Below are positions 26,561 through 55,014 of a DNA stretch of 64,000 nucleotides, in pieces. The stretch spans positions 524,336 through 588,335 of the forward strand of contig OY764332.1 in NCBI GenBank assembly GCA_963668425.1, read 5' to 3'. The notes below the pieces were generated by a model. It did no database searches. It was not told the origin of the DNA and saw only the letters and a list, made by a program, of their open reading frames with translations. Each line of letters opens with the position of its first letter. Within the stretch, counting starts at the first letter, position 1. This stretch comes from Minisyncoccota bacterium. GTDB lineage: Bacteria > Patescibacteriota > Minisyncoccia > Phycocordibacterales > JABAAK01. The translations under genes and the position numbers were made by a program.

Positions 26561-26604
26561 TAGTAGAATACTGTTAGTTATTAATTTAAGATACTTGTGT
26601 GTGT

Positions 26605-29600: not shown

Positions 29601-32600
29601 TTCTACGCAGAGTATTACTGCTACTGCCATTCCTGAAACTGATGATGTGACCACTGATGGCACCTACAAGGCATGTGTTACGGTAGAGGACGTGGCGGGG
29701 AATACACAAACTCTTACTTCTCCTACCTTTACCAGAGACACCGTGGTGCCGGTGCTCTCTCAACCTTTAAGTATTGGCTCTGTTTCAAATCCTACCCCTG
29801 CCTTTACCTTCACCTCTTCTGAGGTAGGAGCAGTGACAGTTGGCGGGTCATGTAGTGCCGGTGCCGCGACTGCGACTGCATCGGCTACTACCATCACACT
29901 ATCAACGCTTTCCCCCGGTACCTACGGCAACTGTACTGTGACGGTTACCGATGTTGCAGGCAACGCGTCTGCCGCATTGTCTATTCCAAGCTTTACTATC
30001 ATCGCAGCGTCAATCACTATTAGCATGTCATCTGATCCCGCGAAACTTCGTGTTGCTATTGCGACCGTTACGGGAGATAGTCCGTCAGACCTGCTCTGGG
30101 CACTCTATGATCCGAATGCTACTCCTACTCCTACCTGTGCCGGCTCTACTAGTAATGTGGTATGGGACGCTAATCAGTCATACACCTCAGGCGCTGAGGT
30201 ATTCGTGGGTACTGTAGAAGCAGACAACGGAAAGAAGGTGTGTTTCAGGGCAACTGTCAACGGTGCTGTTATATACCAATCATCGGATGCTATTGTCGGT
30301 ATTGACAGGACTCCGCCCGTTGCGCCAACACAAACCCCTGACCTTGTTGCAGCTGGTGATACTGGGTCTTCTGACACTGACAATATTACAAACCAAACCA
30401 CCGGTCTTAGTTTTACTATTGGTGGACTTGCAGCAGAAAACGGTGGTGTCGTAACATTCTGGTCAGGGTCAACAAGTCTTGAAATTGCTCGTATTAATAA
30501 TGGTACTGCTACTGTGACTGGTGTTATACTTGCTGAAGGAGTTCATGAGATCACCGCAAGAGCCATTGATGTGGCAGCAAACACAGGACCTGCCTCTCCC
30601 GCGCTAACAGTAACAGTTGATACCACGGCACCTGCTGCCCCTGGTATTGCACTGTCTTCTGACACAGGAAGTAGTTCCAGTGACAAAAAGACCAATGATG
30701 CCACCCTCGCTATCTCTAGTATTGAGGCAGGGGCAACCTGGGAGTACAAGCTGGACACTAATGGTGACAGTGATACTGATAACGATGGTAATCCAGCGAC
30801 AAACGATGATTTGGATGGTATAAGTTTTTCTAGTGGTACTGGTACCACAATCCCAAAAACAGCATTTTCTGGCGCGACGGATGGTATACAGCGGGTACTG
30901 GCGCGTCAAACAGACGTAGCAGGAAACATCTCAGCGAGTTCAGCAGTATTTGACTTTACCTTGGACACCACAAACCCTACTATTGCTAACCCTGTACATG
31001 CCACAGTACTGGCTTCCAATGCTGGGTATCTCAACCTTGCGGGGTTTGCTGGCACCCCTCAGGATCTGGTTCTTGCAGCTGTTGCCACAGATGCCGGAGG
31101 TTCGGTGACTGTTACCTATGCGGTGGGAGCAGGATCTACTCCTGATTGTTCAGCAAACACCTTGACGTATGCATCTGCTATCCCGCAGACCGATGATGTG
31201 ACAGGGGCTGATGGAGATTACTCCGTATGTGTGAAAGGGGTTGATGTGGCGGGGAATATTCATTATGCTAAGACCTCCTTTATAAAAGACACCACCCCAC
31301 CGGCACAGATAACCGCCCTTGATCTGGTGACCGCTGAGGACACGTATGCGGATGTTAATGGTGATGGTGCCTACAATAGTTCTGTTGACTTTGGTTCAAA
31401 TACGGACAACATTACGTCAGACGATGATGTTACCTTTACCATGTCAGGGAAACAAGGATCAGGATCTCTTGTAATTACTGCGGACCCTGCGACAGCGGGC
31501 TCTATTGATAAACAGAAACGTATTACGTTATCCTCTTCAAATTCTGCTAATAGCGTGGCGCATGCGTTTGATTTTAGTGGTGATGATGACACCTATAGTG
31601 TTACAGCAGTACAGATCGACCGTGCGGGAAACCCGTCAACGCCATCAGCAGCGTTATCAGTAACCATAGATACGACTGCACCGAATCTCACTCCAACCAT
31701 TGACCTTAAAGCGAGTTCGGATACAGGAGTAAGCAACACTGACAACTATACCAACGCTGAGCAAATGGAATTTACCATTGGATCGCTTACTGAGGCAAAT
31801 CTGCGTGCTATTTTGAAAGCTGGGAGCACTGTTCTCTCTTCGCAAACTGGCGGGTTCGCGGATTATGCGACTGCAACTACTACTGATTTGACATGGGATA
31901 ACCGTACCGTTAAGAGTGAAGCCGATACCACGATTGGTGTTGTGCTCTACGACCAGGCGGGTAACAAACAAGATTTTACTAGTTCACTGACGGTGTACCC
32001 TGACTATACGGTGAGTGCGCCATTTTTCTCTAGGCATAGTTCACACGATTCAGGAGCGAGTAATTCAGATGGTATCACAAACAATCAACAGCTTGCATTT
32101 ACTCTTGCATCTGTTGAGGTAAAGACCACAAACCGAGGAAACGGTGCGCAGGTTACGGTTTACGATGACAGCTCAACCACCTCGGACCCAAGTGCCGGAT
32201 CTGCTGTTGCCTTGGCATCTGAGGTGGGGCATAGTAATGCTGACGTTACCAATAGCTCACATCTATTGACAACTAGTAAATCAGATTATGCTAACGGAAA
32301 GCACACCTTCTATGCGTGTCAGGAAGATGATGCAGGAAACAGCGCATGCTCATTGGCGGCACCATGGGTAGTTGACATTACCGCGCCAGATGCACCGGGG
32401 GCACCAGATTTACACCAAGATGATGACTCGCGAGGAGCGCATGCAAACAGCGCCCGTGACGGTACTGATGAGGATGACATTACCAACAGTACCACAGAAC
32501 TTGATTTTGCTGTGCAGGCATCAGGATCAAACGTAGAGACAAACGGGGCACATGACCAGCACCAGATACGCTTTTACCTGTGGACTAAGGCAGACGCAGC

Positions 32601-35600
32601 GGACACTTCGGTTGGGGATAGTGAACTCACCGAGCTCAAATCAGTTGCTGTAGATGCCGCATCTAACATACAAACCATTAGTGATGCTGGCTATGTTGCC
32701 AATGGAGAGCGTGGAGCAACAAAGCAGCTCTACACCTCAACAGATACTGCCCTTACCGATGGTTTCCACTACTTTGTCGCCAAGCAGTATGATGTGGCAG
32801 GTAACCTCTCGGCAGTATCAGACGCATTGCGTATATTTGTTGACACACAAGCACCGGACTCTATTACCGTTGACCCAACCCTGCACCCAACCAGTGACTC
32901 TGGAACATCAGACAATGACAAGCAAACCTCATCAGTAGATCTGCTTTTCACTTTTAATCCAACACCAATGTCAGGAGACATTGACTACTTTGAGGTACGA
33001 AGAAAGCGACTCAATAGCGATTTGTCCTCTGCGGAAACCACCTTTACCTACCCGTCAGACGCAGACACCGTAGAGCAGACATCGTATGAGTTCCTTGCAA
33101 AAAACGCAGCCCAAAGCGCTCTTGTCGCAGAGGCAGGGAACACCTACGCAGACGGTGCTTACGCATCTGGTGGTGCCGTGAAGATCTCCGCCATGGATAT
33201 CTCACACTTTAACACCTGGTATGCCTTCAGCATCTATGCCGTTGACATCGCCGGAAACGTGCGACAAGGTTCTAACTCTACCAACGTGCGTATTTTAGTA
33301 CCACCACCAACTCCTACCAAGATGGACCTGTCAGCTACCAAGGACTCAGGAGCACTAGACACAGACAACACTACCAATGAAACCTCTTGGACACTATCTG
33401 GTAGCTATCAGAACACCTCACAAGCAGAGCAAGACAATGACGCAGCAGCCGGCGTAAAAAGAATTGTCGTTAGTGTTAGTAAGCTTGACAGTCAGAATCA
33501 AGCAACAGAAACCCTCACCCACACCTTTACCACAGACACTGACCAAAACTTAACCAACGACATTGCTGTGCCATCTAATGCAAATGATCCCTACACCTAC
33601 ACCTACACCTTTGACGCCACCACCTTCACCACTCTAGAGGACGGTGCTTACCTTGTCACCGCAGCAGCTTACAACAGTGCAGGAGAAACAGGAGGACAGT
33701 CAGCTTCACTGACCATCACCCTTGATAGAGTCGCACCAACACCAGAGGAGCACATCACCCTACGTACCAAGTCCTTTACCGGATCAACCAACCAAGAATA
33801 TATCTTCTCCTACGCAAACCCATCAAACAACGAGCCAAACGCATCAATTGTTCTGGCAGACGCAGACGGTGCTACTGTCAGGACCCTTGACAGCACAAAC
33901 CCTACCTACACCCACACAACCGCCAATGCTATCACCGAATACACCGCAACGTACATTGATGCAGCAGGAAACAGTTCAGAAGCAGTTACCCTCCTTGCCG
34001 TATCACTCCCCCCAACCCTCACCTCGTATACCACCGCGACAAACAGCTACATCGTTATCGCCGCACCCCAGCAAGGAGCAACTATCGCCACAACCACACA
34101 GTACAACGCACAGTCATCCAACCTCTGTGATCCAACTGGATCACGCATTAGTGCGGCAACCTTTGCAACAAATGAAATCAAGACATCAGTAACCACGGAC
34201 TACTGTGTAGAAGCAGTGGACTCAGCAGGGAACGTCAGAACTATTAGAATTAAAGCAGACGCAAACGATCTCATCGCAAACGCTGCAGTACATGACGAAG
34301 ATGATGCAGGAAGCAGTCAGCATGACAACAAGACAAATATCCCAAACCCACGATACACCGCAACCACCCTACCAGGTTCAACGGTACGCATGCAGTCAAG
34401 AATACAAGCATCTCCAGCAAACACTTGGACAGACATACACACCGTTACCGCAGACGCAGACACCGGTATGTTTACCATCCAAACTATTCTTCCTGACCCG
34501 GTAACCGCTGATGCTGTTGTAGAGCTTCAGGGCTTTGTCAGTAACGCAACACTCGGCACCTCTGCGATTGGTCCTATTACCCTTTCTCCTGTTACCCTTG
34601 ACGTGACCGCACCTCAGGCACCCAGCGCCCCTGCCCTTGCAGCAGGAGACGACACGGGGTCAGTGAACAGTGATGCTGTTACCAGCACCACCACTAACCT
34701 CACCTTTGCCTACACCGGTCTTTCAGCGGAGAATGGAGGGTTTGTGAGAATGTATGCAGGTTCAACCCTCTTAGGTGCAACTGTTATCGCATCTGGCAGC
34801 GCCTCTGTTTCCATTACCCTCGCAGAAGGTGTCCACACCCTTGTCGCAAAGCTCATTGACGAGGCAGGGAATGAAGGACCCGCATCACCACCCCTTACCG
34901 TGACGATAGACACTACCGATCCAGCTATCACTATCATCCGACTCAATGATGAGGACACCACCATTGATGTAAACACCAGATTCATCGCAGTAGCAGCAGA
35001 TCAGACATCTCTCATCTTCAAGGTAGCTGAGGAGACCAAGGCATCCTGTACCGCACGCACCATAGATGCAAACACCGCATACACATCAGGAGCTCTGTAT
35101 GACCCGAGTGACTCTTCAACAAATGGCTACTGTTTCGTTGTCACCGACCTAGCAGGCAACAGAGCAACTATGCACACCGATGACGCTATTGAAGGAGTCG
35201 GCTCCTTTGCTATCCAAGGAGGCACAGACGAATCAGGAACACTCTACACCACCTCAGGTACCAAGACCATCACCGGTGTTACTGCACCAGAGGCACAGGT
35301 ACTCATCAAGCTGGCAGACGCAACAGATGACCCCTCAACGTACACCACCAGTAACCTGCAGGACACCTCATTTGCAACCATCTCCTTTGCTATACCAACC
35401 GGCGAGACAACCTTTGAGCAACCCCTCAGTATTGGATCAGGTGACACCGGCAAGAAGGTGGTCGGATGGATATGGACGGATGCAGCTGATGCAACCACTG
35501 CAACCCCAGCAATCACCCTCGGTACCTTGACGGTAGACGACACTGCACCAACTATTACCGCAGGAGTCATCGCATCAAGCAACGCAAACCCCGCCTTTGC

Positions 35601-37440
35601 AAAGCAAGGAGACACTATCACCGCATCCTTTACTACCTCAGAAGCAATCATCGCAGAGACCACCACTATCAACGGCATCCCCGCATCCTGTTCTGACACC
35701 AACAACACCTTCTCCTGTGCTGCAACCCTTACCAACGTAGCGACTGAAGGACCTGCAACGGTTGTAATAGCGGTCACTGACAAAGCAGGGAATACCACGA
35801 ACAGAACTATCACCAACCCCGACATCACCGTAGATGCTATGGCACCAGCAGTAACCATCACCAACCTCAGAACAAAACACCTCGCCACAACTGGCACTCA
35901 AACCTTTACCCTCACTATTACCGATACCAACCAAATCAACCCCGGTACCTACGTCTTCACCGCAACCGGAGCAACCCTTTCAACCTGTCAGATTGTTGTA
36001 CCGGCAACCAGCAACAACGAACAAACAACCTGTACCATCACCACCTCTTCGGCTACAGACGGCACCGCTGTGTCACTGACCGTACCAACCCTCACTGATG
36101 CCTCAGGAAACACCAAAGTATCTCACCAGACAACCCTCGGCTACGTAGACACCCAAGCACCAACCATCACCTCAATCACCTCATTTGACGACTCACGAAC
36201 AAAGAAGTTTTCCTTTACCGTAGCTGTAACCCACAACCAACACACAAGCAACACCAACCCAGAAACCCTCACCGCAGTATTTTCAGGAGATTGCAGTAGA
36301 TTTGAAGCAGAGACAGATACCTGGACCGGTACCACCACCGGCACCTACACCACTACCTTCTCCGCACCAAAAGGTACATACAAAACCTGTACTCTCGCTC
36401 TCAGAGATGAAGCAGGTAACACCTCAGCAACCCAGACCTTTGACCAGTTCACTGTCAAAGGTGGAGGAGGGATAGGGCGTATCGGAGACGTTGCCCGCAA
36501 TGCTATCTCCTCCCTCTTTGATGTGTTTGATGGAGCTGAGCAGCCAACCCCAACCCCAATTGTCCCACCAACAACACCTGTCTTTGACATCGGACAACCG
36601 GGACAACAAGAGCAAACGGCTGCGTTTATTGAAGAGGCAACCTCCTTCACCAGAGACCTCACCATTGGCTCAATCGGAGAAGATGTCAGAGCACTCCAGA
36701 AGATGCTCAACACCCTCGGCTTCATCGTGTCTACAACCGGAGCAGGATCTCCAGGAGCAGAGAGTACTTACTTTGGCGAGAAGACCAGACAAGCCCTCAT
36801 TCGTTATCAAGAGGCAAACAGTATTACTCCAGCATTCGGTTACTTTGGACCACGTACCAGAGCGCATATACAAGGACAAGGACAACTTCAGCCAACAGCA
36901 CCAGTAGAAGAGGTTAGATCATTTGTTGATACAGCGACAGAAGAAGAGCAACAACCAGCACCAACAGTGTCTACTGTAGCTGAAGAGGCACCCTTTGCCG
37001 GCTTTACCAGAGACCTCACTATCGGCTCAGTCGGAGCAGATGTCAGAGCACTCCAAAGCATGCTCAACACCCTTGGCTTTATCGTGTCTACAACTGGAGC
37101 AGGATCTCCAGGAGCAGAGAGTGTCTACTTTGGCGAGAAGACCAGACAAGCCCTTATCCGTTACCAAGAGGCAAACAGTATCACCCCGGCATTAGGTTAC
37201 TTTGGACCACGTACCAGAGCGCAGGTACAAAGGAAGCAACCAGTAGAAGAAGTTAGATCATCTATTGAAACGGCAGAACAAGAGGAAGAGGAGCGACGAG
37301 AACAACAGCCGTCTCCTGAACAACAGCAACAAGCACAGCCGACACAAGAGCAAGAAGGGGATGTCACGGACTATGAACCAATCACTAACCCACTATTCCG
37401 TGTGCGTACACTGCCTTCCCATGGAGCACCAAGTTTTTAG
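26605..37440 (+). CDS. giant surface protein 1 (3611 aa): N-terminal anchor, three copies of a non-Ig about 150-aa module, Ig-like tandem repeats, two C-terminal peptidoglycan-binding domains
   Basis: ATG at 26605 (the track start at 26599 is GTG). The hydrophobic N-terminus is RLVLFGIGVLLALYVGVTVVYAA. More than 30 repeats end in …(V/I)D(T/R)TAP and carry SSDTGSSNSDGITSDFTPSVTVSG-type bacterial Ig-like motifs. Two PG_binding_1-like repeats follow (FTRDLTIGSIGEDVRALQKMLNTLGF…GYFGPRTRA), and the protein ends LFRVRTLPSHGAPSF. Confidence 0.85.
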   Translation: MNISLFRSVPRLVLFGIGVLLALYVGVTVVYAATLASNTGQTDGGNQLMNSTTGLGQVFTTGTAPSTLTSVTFEVVLAALQSDTAHLEVSVQGLNSSGDPDGEDLASVDFFGATGHDPIESTGTVTATFGNALSLRPSTSYAIVFDYTSTMQIRGTAATAEDSSSNGWTIGNVIHSHDRSSGWSSGTAGALELEFVGDIVTTAVYLDSSSDTETVTTANIASASTVDNHTSDYTPELQLVGFTSGATVTVTATSGSQTDRVVTRSGDGAVTLPPLVPGTWAISATDGTNTAATLTIKIEALAPLRLARPGSAQSNRIHDGTYNGVSQPFTTGSDSYLLTGLSYTVGILSPSSNSSATFSVAIQGDDGEGNPDGIPLTYVAVDHGDIESIGDKNVTFPDGGVRLAPSTQYHVVFRYSSNTADLRLAFRQIFSQPPTSSAGWSFSGQSIGYRVSDSSWVDHLNWSGHYLQLGFFGFDTDDSRAIILESASDTGSSNSDGITSDFTPSVTVSGFGDDERVTVLFANADTTTSPISLVANLGDGDILGTRSFAEGVWKAYARTTVGGAIISTPATRIEIDRTAPALSGAVAIGVTGDTTPDFTFTSSEAGTIVVGGSCVSTDTVLQEGENTITFTTALTAGTTYSDCTITPTDVAGNQGTALTVPSFTVLSQLVSNEGESSSDGNIIGGNSEYVMANRITVSSTVTAPYTLEQLFFNVSTAAPTATTGDFTVSVQQEHSSEQRPGGTDLATVTIPSSDHAYLESTGVKSVTFSSPAILQPGVDYWVVFSYSNTSSASTFSLARTTSANQAGLTGWGIGDVCRQTSSTDSTWTDCAGSSVLVVGLYGREIAQSVALKTSSDTGESTSDNITNDATPTIVIDGFDSTPAITVTADHASAADVTVSRDGDGDVTLGTLADGTWTITASAGGNTSPALTIYVDTTDPSVSALTTATFFTGHLGSSDTYINKADSDASAQALFTAPTGSDTHGSYRFFYAVVSSSTDCSTQSITATAIPETDDVTTDGTYKACVTVEDVAGNTQTLTSPTFTRDTVVPVLSQPLSIGSVSNPTPAFTFTSSEVGAVTVGGSCSAGAATATASATTITLSTLSPGTYGNCTVTVTDVAGNASAALSIPSFTIIAASITISMSSDPAKLRVAIATVTGDSPSDLLWALYDPNATPTPTCAGSTSNVVWDANQSYTSGAEVFVGTVEADNGKKVCFRATVNGAVIYQSSDAIVGIDRTPPVAPTQTPDLVAAGDTGSSDTDNITNQTTGLSFTIGGLAAENGGVVTFWSGSTSLEIARINNGTATVTGVILAEGVHEITARAIDVAANTGPASPALTVTVDTTAPAAPGIALSSDTGSSSSDKKTNDATLAISSIEAGATWEYKLDTNGDSDTDNDGNPATNDDLDGISFSSGTGTTIPKTAFSGATDGIQRVLARQTDVAGNISASSAVFDFTLDTTNPTIANPVHATVLASNAGYLNLAGFAGTPQDLVLAAVATDAGGSVTVTYAVGAGSTPDCSANTLTYASAIPQTDDVTGADGDYSVCVKGVDVAGNIHYAKTSFIKDTTPPAQITALDLVTAEDTYADVNGDGAYNSSVDFGSNTDNITSDDDVTFTMSGKQGSGSLVITADPATAGSIDKQKRITLSSSNSANSVAHAFDFSGDDDTYSVTAVQIDRAGNPSTPSAALSVTIDTTAPNLTPTIDLKASSDTGVSNTDNYTNAEQMEFTIGSLTEANLRAILKAGSTVLSSQTGGFADYATATTTDLTWDNRTVKSEADTTIGVVLYDQAGNKQDFTSSLTVYPDYTVSAPFFSRHSSHDSGASNSDGITNNQQLAFTLASVEVKTTNRGNGAQVTVYDDSSTTSDPSAGSAVALASEVGHSNADVTNSSHLLTTSKSDYANGKHTFYACQEDDAGNSACSLAAPWVVDITAPDAPGAPDLHQDDDSRGAHANSARDGTDEDDITNSTTELDFAVQASGSNVETNGAHDQHQIRFYLWTKADAADTSVGDSELTELKSVAVDAASNIQTISDAGYVANGERGATKQLYTSTDTALTDGFHYFVAKQYDVAGNLSAVSDALRIFVDTQAPDSITVDPTLHPTSDSGTSDNDKQTSSVDLLFTFNPTPMSGDIDYFEVRRKRLNSDLSSAETTFTYPSDADTVEQTSYEFLAKNAAQSALVAEAGNTYADGAYASGGAVKISAMDISHFNTWYAFSIYAVDIAGNVRQGSNSTNVRILVPPPTPTKMDLSATKDSGALDTDNTTNETSWTLSGSYQNTSQAEQDNDAAAGVKRIVVSVSKLDSQNQATETLTHTFTTDTDQNLTNDIAVPSNANDPYTYTYTFDATTFTTLEDGAYLVTAAAYNSAGETGGQSASLTITLDRVAPTPEEHITLRTKSFTGSTNQEYIFSYANPSNNEPNASIVLADADGATVRTLDSTNPTYTHTTANAITEYTATYIDAAGNSSEAVTLLAVSLPPTLTSYTTATNSYIVIAAPQQGATIATTTQYNAQSSNLCDPTGSRISAATFATNEIKTSVTTDYCVEAVDSAGNVRTIRIKADANDLIANAAVHDEDDAGSSQHDNKTNIPNPRYTATTLPGSTVRMQSRIQASPANTWTDIHTVTADADTGMFTIQTILPDPVTADAVVELQGFVSNATLGTSAIGPITLSPVTLDVTAPQAPSAPALAAGDDTGSVNSDAVTSTTTNLTFAYTGLSAENGGFVRMYAGSTLLGATVIASGSASVSITLAEGVHTLVAKLIDEAGNEGPASPPLTVTIDTTDPAITIIRLNDEDTTIDVNTRFIAVAADQTSLIFKVAEETKASCTARTIDANTAYTSGALYDPSDSSTNGYCFVVTDLAGNRATMHTDDAIEGVGSFAIQGGTDESGTLYTTSGTKTITGVTAPEAQVLIKLADATDDPSTYTTSNLQDTSFATISFAIPTGETTFEQPLSIGSGDTGKKVVGWIWTDAADATTATPAITLGTLTVDDTAPTITAGVIASSNANPAFAKQGDTITASFTTSEAIIAETTTINGIPASCSDTNNTFSCAATLTNVATEGPATVVIAVTDKAGNTTNRTITNPDITVDAMAPAVTITNLRTKHLATTGTQTFTLTITDTNQINPGTYVFTATGATLSTCQIVVPATSNNEQTTCTITTSSATDGTAVSLTVPTLTDASGNTKVSHQTTLGYVDTQAPTITSITSFDDSRTKKFSFTVAVTHNQHTSNTNPETLTAVFSGDCSRFEAETDTWTGTTTGTYTTTFSAPKGTYKTCTLALRDEAGNTSATQTFDQFTVKGGGGIGRIGDVARNAISSLFDVFDGAEQPTPTPIVPPTTPVFDIGQPGQQEQTAAFIEEATSFTRDLTIGSIGEDVRALQKMLNTLGFIVSTTGAGSPGAESTYFGEKTRQALIRYQEANSITPAFGYFGPRTRAHIQGQGQLQPTAPVEEVRSFVDTATEEEQQPAPTVSTVAEEAPFAGFTRDLTIGSVGADVRALQSMLNTLGFIVSTTGAGSPGAESVYFGEKTRQALIRYQEANSITPALGYFGPRTRAQVQRKQPVEEVRSSIETAEQEEEERREQQPSPEQQQQAQPTQEQEGDVTDYEPITNPLFRVRTLPSHGAPSF
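32383..37440. repeat. about 5-kb segmental duplication, copy in giant gene 1 (near-identical to 49069-54579)
   Basis: Long runs of nucleotide identity; the identical 156-aa and 94/139-aa out-of-frame ORFs in the track at 33722/50396 and 32654/49328 are by-products of the duplication. Confidence 0.8.
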
Positions 37441-37461
37441 TCACTGAACGCTCTTAGATAT

Positions 37462-37831
37462 ATGACAACCACTATAACAGAGCCATATAGAAAGGGACAA
37501 ATAACCACACCCATCAGCAAACCCTTTCTTGACGAAGCCATTGAGCCGTCAGAGAGTAAGCGTATGAGGTGTGCTAAAGGTGCCTCTTTTGCATCTCAGA
37601 TACTAAGAGGAGATGTTGTTGACGCAGTTAACAAAAAGACTAATCCAATCTTGTATACATGGAAATAATGGGAGAGCTTTAATACCTTTTGCGGGTTCAG
37701 GTTCAGAATGTGTCGTGGCAGAATCTCTTGGCATAGGATATGTAGGTATAGAAATAAATCCTGAATATGTTGAATATGCTGAAAAATGGTTACTTTCATA
37801 CAAAAGGCGACTATCCCTTGACACCGCGTGA
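37462..37831 (+). pseudogene. DNA methyltransferase C-terminal fragment (frameshifted remnant)
   Basis: Two overlapping frames; the second encodes ALIPFAGSGSECVVAESLGIGYVGIEINPEYVEYAEKW, which is the motif I (DPFxGSGTT-like) and GIE…PEY C-terminal region of beta-class N4/N6 MTases, with no N-terminal catalytic half. Confidence 0.5.
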
Positions 37832-37899
37832 TAACGCAGGGTGCAAAACTGGTGCTGTGGCGTGGAAAACAATTGTACAATGTATACAAAGACCAATGT

Positions 37900-38703
37900 A
37901 TGCCTTCTCCAAACTTCAAGCCAAATACGCTTTTCAATGAAAATTGTGTTGAGACTATGTCTCGCATTGATGACTGCAGTGTAGACATGATATTAACATC
38001 ACCTCCGTATGATGATATGCGGGAATATGATGGAAACACTTTTACAGAGTTTGAAACAATAGCCAAAGAGGTATACAGGATAGTAAAGGTTGGTGGTGTT
38101 GTTGTATGGGTCATATCTGACCAAACAAAAAACGGAGATGAGACCGGAACATCTTTTAAGCACGCACTGTATTTCAAGGAAACAGGATTTAAACTTTTTG
38201 ATACAATGATTTACTTAAAGCCACCAAGAGGAGCATGTGGCAGTAATAAAACCTATTGGCAATCTTTTGAATACATGTTTGTATTCAGCAAGGGTTCCCC
38301 AAAAACAATCAATCTCCTAATGGACAGAGAGAACAAGGATGAGCGTACTGGCGATACAGGCACAAAAAGAATGTTTAATGGAACAAGGAAAAAGATAAAA
38401 AGGGGCGGCTATGGCAGGCTAGGCAGAAGAACAAATGTTTGGGAATACAAGGTCGGAAGAGGGCATTCGTCAAAAGATGACATTGCATACGAGCATCCTG
38501 CAATTTTCCCAGAAAAGCTTGCAGAAGACCACATACTTTCATGGAGCAATGAATGCGACTTAATCTATGATCCTTTTATGGGCAGCGGCACAACCGCAAA
38601 GATGTCTATCTTAAATGGTAGAAGATTTATAGGAAGTGATATGTCTCAAAAGTATTGTGCGATAGCGAAAAAAAGGATAACAATGTATGAAAAAAAGGTG
38701 TAG
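37900..38703 (+). CDS. beta-class DNA methyltransferase (N4-cytosine or N6-adenine; SPPY motif)
   Basis: Motif IV TSPPY precedes motif I DPFMGSGTT (beta arrangement); the N-terminus LFNENCVETMSRIDDCSVDMILTSPPY matches the typical MTase lead-in; start at ATG 37900 (the track start is GTG 37828). Confidence 0.8.
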   Translation: MPSPNFKPNTLFNENCVETMSRIDDCSVDMILTSPPYDDMREYDGNTFTEFETIAKEVYRIVKVGGVVVWVISDQTKNGDETGTSFKHALYFKETGFKLFDTMIYLKPPRGACGSNKTYWQSFEYMFVFSKGSPKTINLLMDRENKDERTGDTGTKRMFNGTRKKIKRGGYGRLGRRTNVWEYKVGRGHSSKDDIAYEHPAIFPEKLAEDHILSWSNECDLIYDPFMGSGTTAKMSILNGRRFIGSDMSQKYCAIAKKRITMYEKKV

Positions 38704-39067
38704 GGAGTGTAAAAAGTCAAAAAATGAAGAGCATTTTGCAAGAAATCAGTTTGGCAAAAATAACCGTGTGCTTCGCAGACCTGTGTGCAAGGAGTGCTAT
38801 GGCAAAAAAATAAAAATAAAACCGAGAGAAAGAAAGAAGTTTGAGAGAAAAAATCCAAAACCAAGCATAGGCGATTGCTTTGAATGCCCAATATGTCAAC
38901 AGTGTTTTGAAAGACAGCACCGTAATGATGTGGTGCTTGACCACAATGATATTACTGGTGAAATACGTGGGTGGCTTTGTAACAGTTGTAACACAAGTTT
39001 GGGCAAATTCAAAGACAGTGTTATTATACTTAAACGTGCAATACGGTGGATAAAAGGTACACTTTAA
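38687..39067 (+). CDS. endonuclease VII-family (HNH-like) nuclease with N-terminal Zn ribbon
   Basis: VLDHNDITGEIRGWLCNSCNTSLG matches the T4 endoVII core HLDHDH…VRGLLCNLCN…G; N-terminal CRECKK…CKECYG and CFECPICQQC CxxC pairs; overlaps the MTase stop by 17 nt. Confidence 0.75.
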   Translation: MKKRCRECKKSKNEEHFARNQFGKNNRVLRRPVCKECYGKKIKIKPRERKKFERKNPKPSIGDCFECPICQQCFERQHRNDVVLDHNDITGEIRGWLCNSCNTSLGKFKDSVIILKRAIRWIKGTL

Positions 39068-39224
39068 AGGTGTGAGCAAAAAAGCATTTCTAAAACTTTT
39101 GAACAAAACCCTTACACCCGTGAAAGTAACACCTGAAACAAAGGCATAGAAGAAAGACAGTGGTTGTAACGAAAAGCAGACTCATCAACGTACCTCTGTA
39201 GGTACTTCCGAGAAACAAAGTGGT

Positions 39225-39330
39225 GTGTCGGTGTGTTGTGATTTTTTTTGTTTTTTTTGTTGGGTGGTGTGTCGGTGTGTTGTGATTTTTTTGTTTTTTT
39301 TTTTGGGGTGGGTGGTGTGTAAAAGCGTGG
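39225..39330. repeat. tandem duplication of a GT-rich about 48-bp unit
   Basis: gtggtgtgtcggtgtgttgtgattttttt(t)gtttttttt occurs twice in a row. Confidence 0.6.
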
Positions 39331-39367
39331 TTTGCGGTGGTTATGGTGGTGTTATACTGTTTTTGTT

Positions 39368-39643
39368 ATGGGTTTTGATACTTCAATTATTATCTATACC
39401 GCTCTTCCGGGTATGGTCGGTGGGTTGGTGCGGGGATTGATTGGGATTTCTAAACATGTGGTGCGGGATAAGGAGCCGTTTCATCTTCCCAAGTTGTTGT
39501 TTTCGTTGTTGTTGGCAGTGCTTGTCGGGAGTGTGGCAGGTGCACTGACTGAGGGGGATTGGCGGGTGGCGTTGCTTGCTGGTTTTGCCGGGACTGATGT
39601 GTTGGAGTCATTGTGTAAGACGCGTTTGTTAAAGTCCTCATAG
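39368..39643 (+). CDS. small two-TM membrane protein (91 aa), function unknown
   Basis: MGFDTSIIIYTALPGMVGGLVRGLIGI … LLFSLLLAVLVGSVAGALT; no RBS; low confidence. Confidence 0.3.
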   Translation: MGFDTSIIIYTALPGMVGGLVRGLIGISKHVVRDKEPFHLPKLLFSLLLAVLVGSVAGALTEGDWRVALLAGFAGTDVLESLCKTRLLKSS

Positions 39644-39723
39644 GTGTTGAGAGAGGGCGCGATGAGATGGCGCTTGTTGCGGGTGTGTGGCATGGTTGGT
39701 TGTGGTGAAGGGAGGTGATGTAG

Positions 39724-39781
39724 TGCGATGTGAAAAAAAAGATGGAGGGTTTGCATGTATTGGGATGGTGAGTGGTATGGG
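39724..39781. repeat. third copy of conserved 45-bp motif gcgatgtgaaaaaaaagatggagggtttgcatgtattgggatg
   Basis: Same motif as at about 26250 and 26355, again about 150-250 bp upstream of a giant-gene start. Confidence 0.6.
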
Positions 39782-39912
39782 ACGAAGTAAACGGTTATTA
39801 CAAAAATAATGTGTGAACAGTTTTACACATGGCAAACCATACTAAAGAAAAGAATAGAGATATACTATACATTAAGTGAGTAAGTAAAGAGCTCTAATAT
39901 TATCAGATATAT

Positions 39913-42900
39913 ATGATACGTACTATAGCAGTGCCACATACAAAAGGTAAAGGTCTTGCAAAATATATACTCCTCAACGGAGTCCTTCTTTTTATACTTC
40001 TCCTTTCAACCGTCTCAGCGCAAGCAGTAGTATTGGTGAGTAACTTTGGGCAAACTGCAGAACCTACTGGTGGTATTGAATTAACAGGTAGTGCCTACTT
40101 TCATCAAGAGTTTACTACGCCTGCTGGTAGTGATAGCTATACTCTTACTAGTGTTGAACTAAATGTAGTACAAGCAGCTTCAGCTGATCAAGTGAACAAA
40201 ACAGTAATCGTTCATATGTATGAGGTTGATACAACAAATACAGGTAACGATACTCGTCTCGCTACAGTAACCTCTTCACCCGGATTTTTTGATAGCGTCG
40301 GAGATAAGACGTTTGATTTTTCGGATAGTGATGTAACGTTAGCACCTAATACCACCTACGCTGTAAGATTGAGAGGTTCTGGTTATTTGACAGATCCCTT
40401 TAGTGCCGGTGGTATTGTTCCTCATATTAGAAGGCATTCAGACACAGATGAAGATGCTGGAGGTCTCGCAGGTTGGACTATAGCAAATAATGTTTTTTTT
40501 GTAAACTTAGATACCACAAGCACCAGTGCCATACTATCTATGCGCTTAAATGGTGAATTACAACAAGAAGAAGGCATTTCACTTTTATCCTCTTCAGACT
40601 CAGGTTCTTCTGACACCGACAACATCACCAATGACAATACTCCAGAACTCCTTCTTGCAGGATTTACTGATGGTGCAACAGTAACAGTAACCGCAGATCA
40701 TGCTACTGCAGCTGATGTAACTGCTAGTCGTACAGGTGACGGAAGTGTCACTCTGGCAACACTCGCTGACGGTGAATGGGCACTATCAGCAACAGATACA
40801 ACAAACATACACACCCTTACTATTACTGTAGACACTAGTGCTCCCACCGCCATCACTAGTGTCAGCTCTATACCAACCGGATCCGATACCACTCCTGACC
40901 TATCCTTCACCGCACCAGAAGCAGGGACCTTGGTAGCAAATAGTGCGTGTGGTATCACTGCAGAGGCAGTTACATCTGGATCAAACACCATCACGCTGAC
41001 TGCACTTGCTCCTGCCATCTACGCCTCCTGTACCATTCAGATGGCTGATGTAGCAGGAAATAATTCGCCAACAGCAAACATTCCTTCCTTTACGATCACA
41101 GGACCAACAATTGATCTTAAATCCACTTCAGACACAGGAACTTCTGACACCGACAACATCACCAGGGACAATACGCCAACCTTCACTGTCTCAGGACTTA
41201 GTGGAACAGTAACAGTAACTGCAGATCACGCTACTGAAGCTGATGTAACTAACACAAGATCTGGTAATGGAGACGTTACCCTAGGAGCACTTGCCGATGG
41301 CGTGTGGTCAGTATCAGCAAGCGATGGAACCACTACCACCCCTTCCATTAGCGTTACTATAGACCTTGTGGGTCCTGCTAGTCTCATCACCGGTGTCAGC
41401 TCTATAGGGACTACATCGGATACCACTCCTGACTTAACCTTCACTACACCAGAAGCAGGAACCTTAGTAGCAAATACTGCGTGTGGTATCACTGCACAAG
41501 CAGTCATAGCTGGAGAAAACACCATCACGCTAACTGCACTTGCTCCTGGAACCTACGGCTCTTGTACCATTGAGATGACTGATATAGCAGGAAACTATGC
41601 AATCCCAGCAACAAGTATTCCTTCTTTTACAATCACAGGACCAGCCGTTGATCTTAAAGCAAGCTCAGATTCAGGAAGTTCTGACACCGACAACATTACC
41701 AACGACAATACGCCAACCTTCACTGTCTTAGGTCTTGATAATAGTGCAACAGTAACAGTAACTGCAGATCATGCTACTTTAACTGATGTAACTGCTACAA
41801 GATCTGGTAATGGAGACGTTACCTTAGGAACACTTGCCGATGGCGTGTGGTCAGTATCAGCATCAGATGGAACCACTACCACCTCTTCTATCAGTGTTAC
41901 CATAAACTATTCTGGTGCTCCTGGCAGGATTGCTAGCATTAGTGCTATAGGGACAACATCGGATACCACTCCTGACCTAACCTTTACTACAGTAGAGGCA
42001 GGAACCTTAGTAGCAAATACTGCGTGTGGTATCACTGCACAAGCAGTCATACTTGGAGAAAATACCATCACCCTTACTGAACTTACTAATGGCACCTACA
42101 GCACCTGTCAAATCACGATGACTAATGTAGCAGGAAACGCTTCAGTACCAGCAAACATTCCTTCCTTTACCATTACAGGACCATCAATTGACCTTAAAGC
42201 AGGCTCAGACTCAGGTTCTTCAAACACCGACAACCTTACCAACGACAATACGCCAACCTTCACCGTTTCAGGACTTAGTGGAACAGTAACAGTAACCGCA
42301 GATCATGCTACTTTAACTGATGTAACTGCTACAAGAACTGGTAATGGAGACGTTACCCTAGGAACACTTGCTGATGGCGTGTGGTCAGTATCAGCAAGCG
42401 ATGGAACAACTACCACCCCTTCTATCAGTGTTACTATAGACACTTTGGGTCCTGCTACTTTTACTAGCAGTATCAGCTCTATTGGTACTACAGCAGATAC
42501 CACTCCTGACCTTACCTTTACTTCATCAGAAGCAGGAATAGTGCAATCAAATACTGCGTGTGGTATCACTGCACAAGAAGTTACATCTGGATCAAACACT
42601 ATCACGCTTACAGAACTTGCTCCTGGCACCTATAGCACTTGTGTTATTTGGATGATAGATCTAGCAGGAAATCCTTCATCAAATACACCCATCCCCTCCT
42701 TTACAATCATAGTACCAGCAGTTGATCTTAAGGCAAGCTCAGATTCAGGAAGTTCTGACACCGACAACATTACCAACGACAACACACCAACCTTCACTGT
42801 TTCAGGCCTTGATAATAGTGCGCAGGTGAGGGTAGGTGCATCTCAGTCTGGTGAAACTAATGTAACTGCCTCAAGAACTGGTAATGGAGATGTTACGCTC

Positions 42901-45900
42901 CCAACACTTGCAGAGGGGGTATGGACAGTATCAGCAACCGATGGAACCACTATCACCTCTACTATCAGCGTTACTATAGATACAGTTGCGCCATTAAAAC
43001 CAGGCACTCCTACCATTGCCTCTTCTAGTTATGACACAGGTACTTCAAGCAGTGACTATATCACCAGTAACACCCGCCCCCTCTTTACCTCAGCTCCCAG
43101 TGAATCAGTTTTTGCTGAATACACAATTGGTTCTACTGTTTTCCCCGTTTCTGCACGCGGTACTTATACTTTTAGACCAACATCGGCATTAGCAGATGGG
43201 GTACACAGCATATCAGTAATATCAATTGACCTTGCAGGAAACAGATCCGTTGCTTCAGGTACCCGCTCCTTTGCTATTGACACTACTGCTCCTGCTATCA
43301 CTGGTGTCGGTAGTATAGGGACAACAGCAGATAATACCCCTGATCTCTCCTTCACCGCGTCAGAAGCAGGAGTACTGGTAGCGAATAGTGGGTGTGGTAT
43401 TACTGCAGCAACCGTTACAAGTGGAGCAAATACTATTACGCTAACCGCATTTACTCCTGCCACCTACGCCTCTTGTACTATCAACATGAGTGATGTAGCA
43501 GGAAACTCAGGGACAGCAGTCAGTATTCCTTCCTTTACAATCACAGGACCAGACGTTGATCTTAAAGCAAGCTCAGACACAGGAACTTCTGACACCGACA
43601 ACATCACCAACGACAATACGCCAACCATCACTGTTTTAGGGTTTGATGATAGTGCAACAATAACAGTAGTTGCAGATCATGCTACTGCAGCTGATGTAAG
43701 TACCTCAAGATCTGGTAATGGAGACGTTACGCTCCCAACACTCGCTGATGGTGAATGGGCAATAACAGTAACAGACGGATCCAGTATCGTAACTCACAAT
43801 ATTACCGTAGACACCACTGACCCCACTGCCATCACTAATGTCGGTAGTATAGGGAGTGTAACGGATGCCACTCCTGACTTAACCTTTACTACACCAGAAG
43901 CAGGAGTGTTAGTAGCGAATGGTGGTTGTGGTATCACTGCACAAGCAGTTACCTCTGGATCAAACACCATCACCCTTACTGCACTTACTAATGGAACCTA
44001 CGCCTCTTGTACCATTCAGATGGCTGATGTAGCAGGAAATAATTCGCCAACAGCAGCCATTCCTTCCTTTACAATCACAGGACCAGCAATTGATCTTAAA
44101 GCAAGCTCAGATTCAGGAGATTCTGACACCGATAACGTCACCAACGACAATACACCAACCTTCACCGTTTCAGGACTTAGTGGAACAACAATAATAGTAA
44201 CCGCAAGTCAGACCGGTGAGAATGATGTAACTAAACTAATATCTGGTAATGGAGACGTTACGCTAGGAACACTTGTAGATGGCGTGTGGTCAGTAGTAGC
44301 ATCAAATGGAACCACTACCACCCCTGCCATTAGCGTTACGATAGATACAGTTGCACCATTAAAATCAGGCACTCCTACCATTACCCCTCGTTCTCTAGAC
44401 ACAGGTATCTCAAACACCGACCATATCACCAGTAACACCCGCCCCAGCTTTACCTCACCTCCCCGTGAAACATCACTTTTTCTTGAGTTCACACTTGATT
44501 CTACTGTTCTCCCCCTTACTAGACGTGGCGGTGCTACTTTTAGACCAGCATCAGCATTAGCAGATGGGGTATACAACATCTCAGCAATATCAATTGACCT
44601 TGCAGGAAACAGATCACCTGCTTCAGATACCCGTTCCTTTACTATAGACACCACCGTCCCTGTTATCTCTAACGTTGGTTCTATACCCACTTCAATAGAT
44701 ACCACCCCTGACCTTACCTTCACCGCATCAGAAGCGGGAGTACTGGTAGCAAATACTGCGTGTGGTATTACTGCACAAGCAGTTACATCTGCATCAAACA
44801 CTATCACGCTCACCGCACTTACTCCTGCCACCTATAACACATGTACTATCAACATGAAAGATGTAGCAGGAAACACAGGAACGGCAGTCAGTATTCCTTC
44901 CTTCACCATTGCAGATGGACCAATCGTTGATCTTAAGGCAAGCTCAGATTCAGGTTCCTCAGACACTGACAACATTACCAATGACGATACACCAACCATC
45001 ACCGTCTCAAACTATGTGAGCGGTGCAAGTGTAACGGTAACCGCAAGTCAGACCGGTGAGACCAATGTAACTGCTTCCCGCACTGGTAATGGAGATGTTA
45101 CGTTAGGAACACTTGCCGAGGGGGTATGGACAGTATCAGCAACCGATGGAACTACTACTTCAAATGAAATTGAAATTACGATAGATACCACTGTGCCATC
45201 GAAGCGTGCGCTTGTTACTATTGATACAGGTATTTCAAACTCAGATGGTATCGTCAATGATAATACGCCAGGTATTTCTATTCATGGAGTACTTCTTACT
45301 GGCTTCACCGTTCGATGGACAATTGATGGTAGTGTTGACTCCTCTATAACTACAGATTCTTTTATTTCTGCAACACTCTCAGAAGGATCACATACGTTTG
45401 CGGTAGAAATTTTTGATATTGCAGGAAATAAATCACCCATCTCAGACACCCTTACCCTTATTATTGACACTACTGTTCCTGTTATTTCCGGTGTTAGTAG
45501 TATAGGGACAACAGCAAATAATGTTCCCGAGCTTACCTTCACTGCATCAGAAGCAGGAGTACTGGTAGCAAATACTGCGTGTGGTATCACTGCACAAGCA
45601 GTTACAAGTGGATCAAACACTATCACATTAACAGAATTAGCTATCGCCACCTATGCCTCTTGTACTATCAACATGAGTGATGTAGCAGGAAACACAGGAA
45701 CAGCAGTCAATGTTCCTTCCTTCACTATTCAAGCAGGACCAAGGATAGACCTCAAAGCTAGTTCAGATTCAGGAAGTTCTAACACTGACAACATCACCAA
45801 TCACAGTACACCAATTTTCATCATTTCAGGATTTGATACTAGTGCAGCACTAAGAATGACCGCAACACATGCTACTGCAGATGCTGTAACGACCCATCAC

Positions 45901-54713: not shown

Positions 54714-55014
54714 TAACGTGTAAAAATATCCTTATTCTATAGGATATTATTTTGTGTGTTGGATAAATGTCTTTAGTTTACAAGGTTTTTGTGTGTGTTT
54801 ACAGTATGCTGTTAAGTGTAACGTGTAAAAATATCCTTATTCTATAGGATATTATTTTGTGTGTTGGATAAATGTCTTTAGTTTACAAGGTTTTTTTGTG
54901 TGTTTACAGTATGCTGTTAAGTGTAACGTGTAAAAATATCCTTATTCTATAGGATATTATTTTGTGTGTTGGATAAATGTCTTTAGTTTACAAGGTTTTT
55001 TTGTGTGTTTACAG
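54714..55014. repeat. three tandem 105-bp repeats, each with the perfect palindrome aatatcct-N8-aggatatt
   Basis: Unit starts at 54714, 54819 and 54924; the units are near-identical; the third is truncated just before the downstream start codon. Confidence 0.8.

What the first reader, a model, noticed from the sequence alone, without database searches (positions are those of the whole stretch)
37462..39067. Methylase pseudogene + intact SPPY DNA methyltransferase + overlapping endonuclease-VII nuclease inserted between giant genes 1 and 2
A frameshifted C-terminal MTase remnant (37462-37831) is followed by a complete beta-class MTase (TSPPY … DPFMGSGTT). Its last 17 nt overlap the start of a 126-aa protein with the phage T4 endoVII/HNH core (VLDHNDITGEIRGWLCNSCNTSLG) and Zn-ribbon CxxC pairs. 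Methylase and nuclease are translationally coupled, which suggests a compact R-M-like or mobile addiction or homing module. EndoVII-family nucleases are not the usual restriction partner, so this pairing is unusual. Its position between recombining giant genes, with GT-rich repeats at 39225-39330 on one side, raises the possibility that it is a mobile insertion or even contributes DNA breaks that promote cassette exchange.
Basis: partly seen in the sequence, partly recalled or inferred. Interest (0 to 1): 0.65.

Follow-up and report, generated by a model that had tools for sequence, protein, structure and literature searches.

The report
Hpy99I-type restriction-modification gene pair
The two overlapping genes are an ordinary restriction-modification defence system of the Hpy99I type; its one unusual feature is a very short (126-residue) cutting enzyme that lacks a domain the model enzyme needs.

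Summary
The 126-aa protein (38687-39067) is a full-length homolog of the DNA-recognition and catalytic module of the Type II restriction enzyme Hpy99I. It matches PDB 3fc3 at E 5.5e-19 with 38% identity. An AlphaFold model gives TM 0.80 to Hpy99I and 0.37 to T4 endonuclease VII. The upstream methyltransferase (37900-38703) is 46% identical over its full length to M.Hpy99I, a beta-class m4C enzyme that methylates CGWCG. H. pylori has the same M-then-R order with overlapping genes. In 71 genome loci from several bacterial phyla and from Nitrosopumilus, the same two genes are adjacent. They lie co-directionally in 45 loci and convergently in 26, and both are under strong purifying selection (dN/dS about 0.07). 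CGWCG is depleted in the window (O/E 0.54). What differs is that this clade lacks the Hpy99I N-terminal SH3 barrel, whose deletion inactivated Hpy99I, and has changed two minor-groove contact residues. The "pseudogene" is a 5'-truncated C-terminal relic of a different methyltransferase family; I found no support for a frameshift. Nothing supports a role in recombination between the giant genes, and no mobility signatures were found. Verdict: a predicted, untested R-M system that is a modest variant of a known kind.

The parts
37900..38703 (+). M gene: a beta-class DNA methyltransferase of 267 aa with motif IV TSPPY and motif I DPFMGSGTT. It is predicted to make N4-methylcytosine. An in-frame GTG at 37828 is a possible but unsupported alternative start.
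   Evidence: PF01555 matched 1-221/221, E 1.4e-38. Identical database protein P0050 of 267 aa. 46% identity over the full length to the H. pylori M.Hpy99I ortholog, E 8e-86. M.Hpy99I is a beta-class m4C enzyme acting on CGWCG (PMC3936762).
38687..39067 (+). R gene: a 126-aa beta-beta-alpha-Me (His-Me finger) nuclease made of two beta4-alpha2 Zn-Cys4 repeats. It is an SH3-less homolog of the restriction endonuclease Hpy99I. Predicted Zn ligands are C5, C8, C34, C37 and C67, C70, C98, C101. Predicted catalytic residues are D85, H86 and N102. Predicted base readers are N20, Q21 and R31.
   Evidence: phmmer against PDB 3fc3, E 5.5e-19, query 2-123. PADLOC REase_II, 9.5e-20. AlphaFold2 pLDDT 90.8. 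Foldseek TMq 0.80 to 3fc3 against 0.37 to T4 endoVII. Residue mapping.
38687..38703 (+). The 17-nt overlap between the 3' end of M and the 5' end of R. An AAGGA Shine-Dalgarno-like element lies at 38673-38677, inside M.
   Evidence: Read directly from the sequence. Overlaps of 4-56 nt occur in nearly all of the 45 co-directional homologous loci.
37613..37831 (+). A 72-aa ORF that is a 5'-truncated relic of a second, unrelated beta-class methyltransferase. Homology is limited to 37625-37792, the C-terminal AdoMet-binding motif I region.
   Evidence: PF01555 positions 169-221 only, E 1.4e-8. 71% identical to P0292, and 53-58% to the C-termini of the full-length proteins P0294 and P0300. 26% identical to the intact M.
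37462..37668 (+). A 68-aa ORF with no detectable homology. It is not shown to be part of the methyltransferase relic and may not be a gene.
   Evidence: No Pfam or PHROG hit. No match to relic-family proteins or to LexA-like proteins. No match in the related loci.
37455..39662 (.). The unique spacer between the conserved 3' end of giant gene 1 and the conserved upstream module of giant gene 2. It holds the relic, M, R, the 44-nt duplication (39220-39307) and a small membrane-protein ORF (39368-39643).
   Evidence: blastn of 37300-40100 against the rest of the window. Homology to the gene 2/3 junction ends at 37454 and resumes at 39663. GC is 0.39 for M and 0.37 for R, against 0.44 for the flanking chromosome.

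Best explanation
This is a two-gene Type IIP restriction-modification system of the Hpy99I type, sitting in the variable spacer between two paralogous giant surface-protein genes of a small-genome bacterium (probably Patescibacteria).

The methyltransferase (37900-38703) is predicted to make N4-methylcytosine in a short CG-rich palindrome. That site is most likely CGWCG or a close variant such as CGNCG, and methylation protects the host DNA.

The 126-aa nuclease (38687-39067) is predicted to act as a homodimer that encircles unmethylated sites. It would read the outer C:G and inner G:C pairs in the major groove with N20, Q21 and R31 (Hpy99I N83, Q84, R94). It would cut each strand at a single-metal beta-beta-alpha-Me site formed by D85, H86 and N102 (Hpy99I D148, H149, N165). 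Each of its two repeats is held together by a Cys4 zinc site.

Having R start 17 nt inside the end of M, behind an internal AAGGA, would tie nuclease translation to translation of the methyltransferase.

Shown here: homology of both proteins to the Hpy99I pair, the fold, conservation of the residues, linkage of the two genes, and purifying selection. Inferred: enzymatic activity, dimerisation, the exact recognition site, and the coupling mechanism.
For: - Nuclease identity. It aligns over residues 2-123 with native Hpy99I residues 65-186, which are exactly the two beta4-alpha2 repeats (E 5.5e-19; 38% identity). The structural model has pLDDT 90.8. Its top PDB match is Hpy99I at TMq 0.80, while T4 endoVII reaches only 0.37.
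- Conserved residues. All 8 Zn cysteines, D148/H149/N165 and the major-groove readers N83/Q84/R94 are invariant in 49 short-form and 116 long-form homologs, and all are present in the window protein. Residue roles are taken from PMC2699513.
- Methyltransferase identity. It is 46% identical over its full length to the H. pylori M.Hpy99I ortholog. In H. pylori that gene precedes and overlaps R.Hpy99I. M.Hpy99I makes m4C in CGWCG (PMC3936762).
- Linkage. Of the genome loci with a near-full-length nuclease homolog, 71 have an orthologous methyltransferase (43-71% identity) directly adjacent, 45 co-directional and 26 convergent. The few without one are cut by a contig end or are the most distant match.
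- Co-divergence and selection. Pairwise identities of M and R correlate (Spearman 0.77). Median dN/dS is 0.08 for R and 0.06 for M.
- Site depletion. CGWCG has O/E 0.54 in the window (3rd lowest of 32 comparable pentamer classes). It is 0.59 across 649 kb of host loci carrying the pair (2nd lowest), against 1.00 in control viral loci.
Against: - The nuclease lacks the N-terminal SH3 barrel (PF18350) of Hpy99I. Deleting residues 1-53 from Hpy99I abolished its activity and solubility (PMC2699513).
- Two of the five base-contacting residues differ systematically in this clade: D162 becomes S or N (N99 here) and R170 becomes K (K107 here). The recognition site may therefore not be CGWCG.
- CGSCG is also depleted in the host loci (O/E 0.63). 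The depletion test has no matched control genomes that lack the system.
- More than 8000 methyltransferase homologs exist, against 49 short-form and about 1200 long-form nucleases. The methyltransferase family therefore often lives without this nuclease.
- No activity or methylome data exist for this organism.
Confidence: 0.8

Rival explanations
1. The system is decaying or only half functional. The methyltransferase works as a solitary (orphan) enzyme, and the SH3-less nuclease is inactive or crippled.
For: Removing the barrel inactivated Hpy99I (PMC2699513). The best PADLOC model for the methyltransferase is an 'orphan methyltransferase' model (3.8e-90). Methyltransferase homologs far outnumber nuclease homologs. 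A decayed nuclease lies downstream of a LexA-methyltransferase fusion in L168. A methyltransferase relic lies next door, which shows that gene decay happens at this site.
Against: The ORF is intact, with every catalytic, zinc-binding and major-groove residue present. The short clade is conserved across phyla with dN/dS of about 0.08, and it stays linked to its methyltransferase in two gene orders. An inactive gene would not be kept in this way. CGWCG is depleted.
Confidence: 0.1
2. The nuclease is a free-standing homing or selfish nuclease of the EndoVII/HNH type that spreads itself and the neighbouring methyltransferase gene. It is not a defence enzyme.
For: A homing endonuclease that uses the EndoVII motif is known (F-CphI, PMC6083498). 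The cassette is found in very different neighbourhoods: a phage-like region in L001, and a two-gene island between purM-like and htpG-like genes in L003. Its GC content is lower than that of the flanking DNA.
Against: Its closest characterised relative by sequence and fold is a restriction enzyme, and the base-reading residues are conserved. It is strictly paired with one methyltransferase clade that is homologous to M.Hpy99I, including in convergent arrangements. Cultured phages and plasmids hold only distant EndoVII relatives. No target-site duplication or insertion into a homologous gene was seen. Patchy distribution and horizontal transfer are also typical of R-M systems.
Confidence: 0.05
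3. One reading: the nuclease makes breaks that promote cassette exchange between the paralogous giant genes.
For: The location between giant genes that share 89% identity over about 1800 residues. As general background (my own knowledge, not looked up here), R-M systems can stimulate recombination.
Against: The 25 CGWCG sites in the window are scattered and under-represented, not concentrated in the giant genes. Host sites would be methylated. Homologous cassettes sit in unrelated contexts without giant genes. The other giant-gene spacer carries a different gene.
Confidence: 0.02

Closest known systems
Hpy99I restriction-modification system of Helicobacter pylori J99 (R.Hpy99I, PDB 3fc3; M.Hpy99I, jhp0756; CGWCG, m4C)
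   Same: Both proteins are homologous to their Hpy99I counterparts (R 38%, M 46% identity). The gene order is the same, M then R, with overlapping genes. The R protein shares the two beta4-alpha2 Zn-Cys4 repeats, the catalytic D-H...N site and the major-groove readers N83, Q84 and R94. The M protein is a beta-class enzyme with the SPPY motif.
   Different: There is no N-terminal SH3 barrel or linker (126 aa against 190 aa), although the barrel was needed for Hpy99I activity. The minor-groove contacts are changed: D162 to N and R170 to K. Pfam PF18275 and PF18350 are not detected, so standard annotation calls the protein 'endonuclease VII' or 'hypothetical'. The specificity is untested.
Phage T4 endonuclease VII (Holliday-junction resolvase; Pfam PF02945)
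   Same: It shares the beta-beta-alpha-Me catalytic core with a Cys4 zinc site. PF02945 matches residues 66-123.
   Different: Only the C-terminal half matches. Against PDB the E-value is 0.075 and TMq is 0.37. The window protein has an extra N-terminal recognition repeat, lacks the T4 dimerisation helices, and has a methyltransferase partner.
PacI and other HNH-type Type IIP restriction enzymes
   Same: These are small homodimeric enzymes with a His-Me finger, structural Cys4 zinc sites and a single catalytic metal (PMC4081073).
   Different: PacI did not appear in the PDB sequence search (E up to 1) or the Foldseek search. According to the review, PacI uses a different general base (Tyr).
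F-CphI, an EndoVII-motif homing endonuclease of cyanophage S-PM2
   Same: It uses the EndoVII catalytic motif in a mobile-DNA setting (PMC6083498).
   Different: It is phage-borne, has no methyltransferase partner and works by homing. I did not compare the sequences directly.

Membership tests
Hpy99I-family Type IIP restriction endonuclease | A beta-beta-alpha-Me active site: Asp148 and Asn165 hold the metal, and His149 is the general base. | tested here: met
   D85, H86 and N102 align with these residues. They are invariant in 49 short-form and 116 long-form homologs. Roles are taken from PMC2699513.
Hpy99I-family Type IIP restriction endonuclease | Two beta4-alpha2 repeats, each with a structural Zn bound by two CxxC motifs. 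| tested here: met
   C5/C8/C34/C37 and C67/C70/C98/C101 are conserved. The AlphaFold2 model (pLDDT 90.8) superposes on 3fc3 with TMq 0.80. Pfam PF18275 itself is not detected for the window protein.
Hpy99I-family Type IIP restriction endonuclease | An N-terminal SH3-like beta-barrel (PF18350, residues 1-53), required for the activity of Hpy99I. | tested here: not met
   Only 1 residue precedes the position that aligns with Hpy99I residue 65. The short clade has 0-27 residues there, against 63-77 in the long clade. 38687 is the first start codon after the in-frame stop. PF18350 is absent.
Hpy99I-family Type IIP restriction endonuclease | The base-contact residues for CGWCG: N83, Q84 and R94 in the major groove, D162 and R170 in the minor groove. 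| tested here: inconclusive
   N20, Q21 and R31 are conserved. D162 is replaced by N99 and R170 by K107, and these changes are systematic in the short clade.
Hpy99I-family Type IIP restriction endonuclease | An adjacent cognate beta-class m4C methyltransferase homologous to M.Hpy99I. | tested here: met
   46% identity over the full length, E 8e-86. The two genes are adjacent in 71 loci.
Hpy99I-family Type IIP restriction endonuclease | Cleavage of unmethylated CGWCG that leaves 5-nt 3' overhangs. | not testable with these tools
   There is only indirect evidence: CGWCG has O/E 0.54 in the window and 0.59 in the host loci.
Beta-class N4-cytosine/N6-adenine DNA methyltransferase (PF01555) | Motif IV ((S/D/N)PPY) lies N-terminal, motif I (FxGxG) lies C-terminal, and the Pfam model is matched over its full length. 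| tested here: met
   TSPPY and DPFMGSGTT are present. PF01555 is matched 1-221/221 at 133.5 bits against a cut-off of 26.7.
Beta-class N4-cytosine/N6-adenine DNA methyltransferase (PF01555) | The product is N4-methylcytosine. | not testable with these tools
   Inferred from the SPPY motif and from homology to M.Hpy99I, for which m4C was shown by SMRT sequencing (PMC3936762).
T4 endonuclease VII-type junction resolvase | Similarity to T4 endoVII over the whole protein, including its helical dimerisation part. | tested here: not met
   Only residues 65-110 align (E 0.075). Foldseek gives TMq 0.37 at E 0.23.
Homing endonuclease (HNH/EndoVII-motif) | It lies within or beside a gene whose cassette-free allele carries the target, and it has no protective methyltransferase. 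| tested here: not met
   It is always paired with a methyltransferase and its flanking genes vary. No interrupted gene or target duplication is present.

The most novel reading that the evidence does not exclude
The short clade may be a naturally minimal Hpy99I-type restriction enzyme of about 126-135 aa, consisting only of the two zinc repeats. It would be active without the SH3 barrel that the prototype needs. Its altered minor-groove readout (D162 to S/N, R170 to K) could give a different specificity at the central or outer positions, for example CGNCG. At 126 aa the window protein would be a very small Type II restriction enzyme.
Probability: 0.3. Interest if true: 0.45.

Novelty: new variant of a known kind. 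Interest (0 to 1): 0.3.

Why it matters
For the genome, it matters little. It is one more horizontally acquired defence cassette in a variable spacer, and it explains the local drop in GC content and the relic next to it.

For restriction-enzyme research, the SH3-less clade shows that the two zinc repeats of Hpy99I may be enough on their own as a recognition and cleavage unit. At least 71 genome loci carry a near-full-length short-form nuclease next to its methyltransferase, and the gene is under strong purifying selection. The systematic change in the two minor-groove readers points to a possibly new specificity that can be tested directly.

For annotation, Pfam finds only an 'endonuclease VII' domain and NCBIfam finds nothing. 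The related proteins are named in the databases 'endonuclease domain-containing', 'Recombination endonuclease VII' or 'hypothetical'. Systems of this kind can therefore be missed in CPR bacteria and other uncultured lineages.

Tried and rejected
- Source contig. Exact look-ups of the methyltransferase (both starts, and P0050), the nuclease, the small membrane ORF and a housekeeping ORF all returned 'not on record'. The listing of cluster members gave no name or accession for P0050. The organism is therefore inferred only from a 696,550-nt contig and from Patescibacteria-rich methyltransferase hits.
- Empty-site or sister genomes. Two metagenome scans, one with the giant-gene C-terminus and one with the nuclease, found no relatives. 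Insertion could not be tested.
- Plasmids and cultured phages. Plasmids gave no match. Phages gave only distant EndoVII proteins, at most 31% identical over the full length.
- LexA relic. I tested whether the 68-aa ORF is a relic of a LexA-like gene, as found upstream of the pair in L166. tblastn and a profile search found nothing (best E 0.5), so I rejected the idea.
- Relic as a duplicate. The relic is not a copy of the intact methyltransferase; they are only 26% identical and belong to different families.
- Downstream features. The downstream membrane ORF, the 68-aa ORF and the 44-nt repeat do not travel with the cassette; none has a hit in the fetched loci.
- RNA and signals. No Rfam family matches 37400-39950 at E up to 1. 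Promoter and terminator scans were not above the shuffled background.
- NCBIfam. It has no model that recognises either Hpy99I or the window protein.
Full report
**1. What is in the sequence**

The ORF scan and the raw sequence show four + strand ORFs between giant ORF 1 (26599-37440) and giant ORF 2 (39913-54579):
- 37462-37668 (68 aa)
- 37613-37831 (72 aa)
- 37828/37900-38703
- 38687-39067 (126 aa)

The third ORF matches the N6/N4 DNA-methylase model PF01555 over its whole length (E 1.4e-38). It carries TSPPY near the N-terminus and DPFMGSGTT near the C-terminus, which is the beta-class motif order. An identical 267-aa database protein (P0050, from a 696,550-nt contig) and the N-termini of homologs support ATG 37900 as the start.

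The 126-aa ORF matches PF02945 (endonuclease VII) over residues 66-123 (E 3.8e-15). It begins 17 nt before the methylase stop codon, with an AAGGA 9 nt upstream.

**2. The 'pseudogene'**

Only the 72-aa ORF has methylase homology, limited to PF01555 positions 169-221. An exhaustive HMMER search found its relatives in a distinct beta-class family with a 'LIPFxGSGSEC' motif (71% identity to P0292; 53-58% to the C-termini of the full-length proteins P0294 and P0300).

tblastn with those proteins matches only 37625-37792. Nothing upstream matches in any frame. The relic is 26% identical to the intact methylase, so it is not a duplicate of it.

The 68-aa ORF has no homolog in Pfam or PHROGs, in the relic family, or among LexA-like proteins. 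This is a 5'-truncated relic of a second methylase. The 'frameshift' is not supported.

**3. What the nuclease is**

A sequence search of the PDB gives one strong hit, the restriction endonuclease Hpy99I (3fc3, E 5.5e-19). The alignment covers query residues 2-123. T4 endonuclease VII scores E 0.075, over residues 65-110 only.

The PDB chain carries a 10-residue tag, so the match corresponds to native Hpy99I residues 65-186. These are exactly the two beta4-alpha2 repeats (65-126 and 127-190) described in the structure paper (PMC2699513). PADLOC's Type II REase model matches at 9.5e-20.

An AlphaFold2 model built from 25 homologs has pLDDT 90.8. Its best PDB match is Hpy99I (TMq 0.80, 37% identity, E 4e-9), while T4 endoVII gives TMq 0.37.

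I aligned 49 short-form and 116 long-form homologs and mapped the residues named in the paper:
- All eight zinc cysteines are invariant and present in the window protein.
- The catalytic residues D148, H149 and N165 are invariant (window D85, H86, N102).
- The three major-groove readers N83, Q84 and R94 are invariant (window N20, Q21, R31).
- Two minor-groove contacts differ systematically. D162 is Asp in all long forms but Ser, Asn or Gly in the short forms (N99 here). R170 is Arg in 111 of 116 long forms but Lys in 46 of 49 short forms (K107 here).

**4. What the methylase is**

The H. pylori locus of an Hpy99I ortholog (L165) has a 272-aa PF01555 gene that ends 7 nt inside the nuclease gene. 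This is the same order as in the window. That protein is 46% identical to the window methylase over its full length (E 8e-86). SMRT methylome work assigns M.Hpy99I (jhp0756) as a beta-class enzyme that makes m4C in CGWCG (PMC3936762). Both components of the window pair are therefore homologous to the Hpy99I system.

**5. Linkage and selection**

A scan of one genome per species found 79 loci that encode relatives of the nuclease. In 71 loci with a near-full-length nuclease, an ortholog of the window methylase (43-71% identity) lies directly adjacent. In 45 of these the genes are co-directional (M then R, mostly overlapping by 4-56 nt). In 26 they are convergent, with gaps of -32 to +90 nt. Four genome loci with a longer nuclease match showed no methylase. 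In L028 and L035 the nuclease starts within about 150 nt of the locus start, and in L078 it runs to the contig end. L079 is the most distant match, at 31% identity.

The hosts include Bacteroidota, Patescibacteria, Nitrosopumilus (archaea), Alpha- and Gammaproteobacteria, Actinobacteria and Clostridia. The neighbouring genes differ from locus to locus. L001 is a phage-like region, L003 is a two-gene island between purM-like and htpG-like genes, and in L166 the pair sits beside a LexA-like gene.

Pairwise identities of the two proteins correlate (Spearman 0.77 over 1891 non-independent pairs). Median dN/dS is 0.08 for the nuclease and 0.06 for the methylase. Linkage kept across two gene orders, together with strong purifying selection, argues for a functional pair rather than a passenger nuclease.

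**6. Indirect test of the target**

I used a maximal-order Markov expectation and compared 32 classes of palindromic pentamer.

| Sequence set | CGWCG O/E | Rank (lowest first) | CGSCG O/E |
|---|---|---|---|
| Window (64 kb) | 0.54 (25 seen, 46 expected) | 3rd of 32 | 0.76 |
| Host loci carrying the pair (649 kb) | 0.59 | 2nd of 32 | 0.63 |
| Viral loci with distant EndoVII genes (625 kb, control) | 1.00 | 14th of 32 | 1.07 |

This fits a CG(N/W)CG target. The test is weak because there are no matched control genomes, and because the window avoids other palindromes even more strongly (GGCC 0.19, TCGA 0.25, AGNCT 0.20).

**7. How it differs from the known system**

Hpy99I has three Pfam domains: SH3_17 (PF18350, residues 2-54), His_Me_b4a2 (PF18275) and Endonuclease_7. 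The window protein has no SH3 part. One residue precedes the position that aligns with Hpy99I residue 65, and 38687 is the first start codon after the in-frame stop, so no N-terminal extension is possible. All 49 close homologs are 122-164 aa long and lack PF18350.

The structure paper reports that deleting residues 1-53 drastically reduced solubility and abolished activity. A conserved, selected clade without the barrel is therefore a real variant. Its activity cannot be taken for granted.

Standard annotation does not flag these proteins as restriction enzymes. Pfam gives only 'endonuclease VII'. NCBIfam gives nothing. The database names of close homologs are 'endonuclease domain-containing' or 'hypothetical'.

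**8. Genomic setting**

blastn of 37300-40100 against the rest of the window shows two boundaries. Homology with the gene 2/gene 3 junction ends at 37454, which is 14 nt past the stop codon of giant gene 1. The shared upstream module of the giant genes resumes at 39663.

The unique spacer is therefore 37455-39662. Besides the relic, M and R, it holds a two-copy 44-nt duplication (39220-39307) and a small membrane-protein ORF. Neither of those travels with the cassette elsewhere.

The spacer between giant genes 2 and 3 carries a different gene, a 342-aa ORF with winged-helix and phosphoribosyltransferase-like domains. M and R have lower GC (0.39 and 0.37) than the surrounding chromosome (0.44).

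There are no terminal repeats, integrase or transposase. No close relative or empty site could be found. Horizontal acquisition is plausible, but an insertion event is not shown. Nothing links the nuclease to recombination between the giant genes.

**9. Verdict**

The best explanation (confidence 0.8) is a Type IIP restriction-modification system of the Hpy99I type. A beta-class m4C methylase protects CGWCG-like sites, and a dimeric His-Me-finger nuclease cuts them when they are unmethylated.

The rivals are an inactive or decaying nuclease beside a solitary methylase (0.1), a homing-type selfish nuclease (0.05), and a driver of giant-gene recombination (0.02).

The kind of system is known. 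The SH3-less architecture and the changed minor-groove residues make it a modest new variant. Interest is about 0.3, and it lies mainly in a possibly minimal restriction enzyme with a possibly new specificity.

Noticed in passing
L166:2374-4373, L168:3001-4665, L169:769-2348 (Patescibacteria contigs); proteins P0058, P0083, P0124 and others: In Patescibacteria relatives the same R-M pair sits directly downstream of a LexA-like S24 peptidase gene (L166). In others the methyltransferase is fused to a full LexA (461 aa: LexA DNA-binding domain + S24 peptidase + PF01555). The fusion is followed by an intact nuclease start (L169) or a decayed nuclease (L168). This hints at SOS-linked control of an R-M system. 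No LexA relic is present in the window.
   Followed up: partly
window 1-64000: The window avoids several palindromes far more strongly than CGWCG: GGCC O/E 0.19, TCGA 0.25, and AGNCT 0.20 for both W and S centres. This suggests pressure from other restriction systems in this lineage.
   Followed up: no
window 26599-37440, 39913-54579, about 56364 to 64000: There are three tandem paralogous giant ORFs: 3613 aa, 4888 aa, and a third that stays open to the window end (more than 2540 aa). Genes 1 and 2 are 89% identical over about 1800 C-terminal residues. Genes 2 and 3 share the signal peptide and an upstream module.
   Followed up: partly
window 39220-39307: A two-copy tandem duplication of a 44-nt GT/T-rich unit (95% matches). 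It is unique in the window, absent from all fetched loci, and has no Rfam match. Its function is unknown.
   Followed up: partly
window 54977-56005: The spacer between giant genes 2 and 3 carries a 342-aa ORF with weak winged-helix HTH and phosphoribosyltransferase hits. The spacers between the giant genes therefore hold different cargo.
   Followed up: no
L011, L014, L029, L037 (Nitrosopumilus chromosomes): The same methyltransferase-nuclease pair occurs in archaeal Nitrosopumilus genomes, with the methyltransferase up to 71% identical to the window's. This indicates transfer of the cassette between domains. In L029 and L037 my script found no start codon for the nuclease.
   Followed up: no
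L166 versus L001/L006, compared with window 37900-39067: The partner lineages are not strictly congruent. The window methyltransferase is closest (73%) to that of L166, whose nuclease is only 44% identical and carries an extra N-terminal zinc ribbon. The closest nucleases (64%) sit next to methyltransferases that are 62-63% identical.
   Followed up: no
P0291-P0303 (relatives of window 37613-37831): Many of the best matches to the methyltransferase relic are themselves short proteins of 65-164 aa that hold only the C-terminal motif I region. Either fragments of this family are common, or these are partial gene calls.
   Followed up: no
L064:5141-6355: The methyltransferase and nuclease matches lie in the same reading frame, with a stop inside the nuclease match. 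This is probably a degraded copy of the pair.
   Followed up: no
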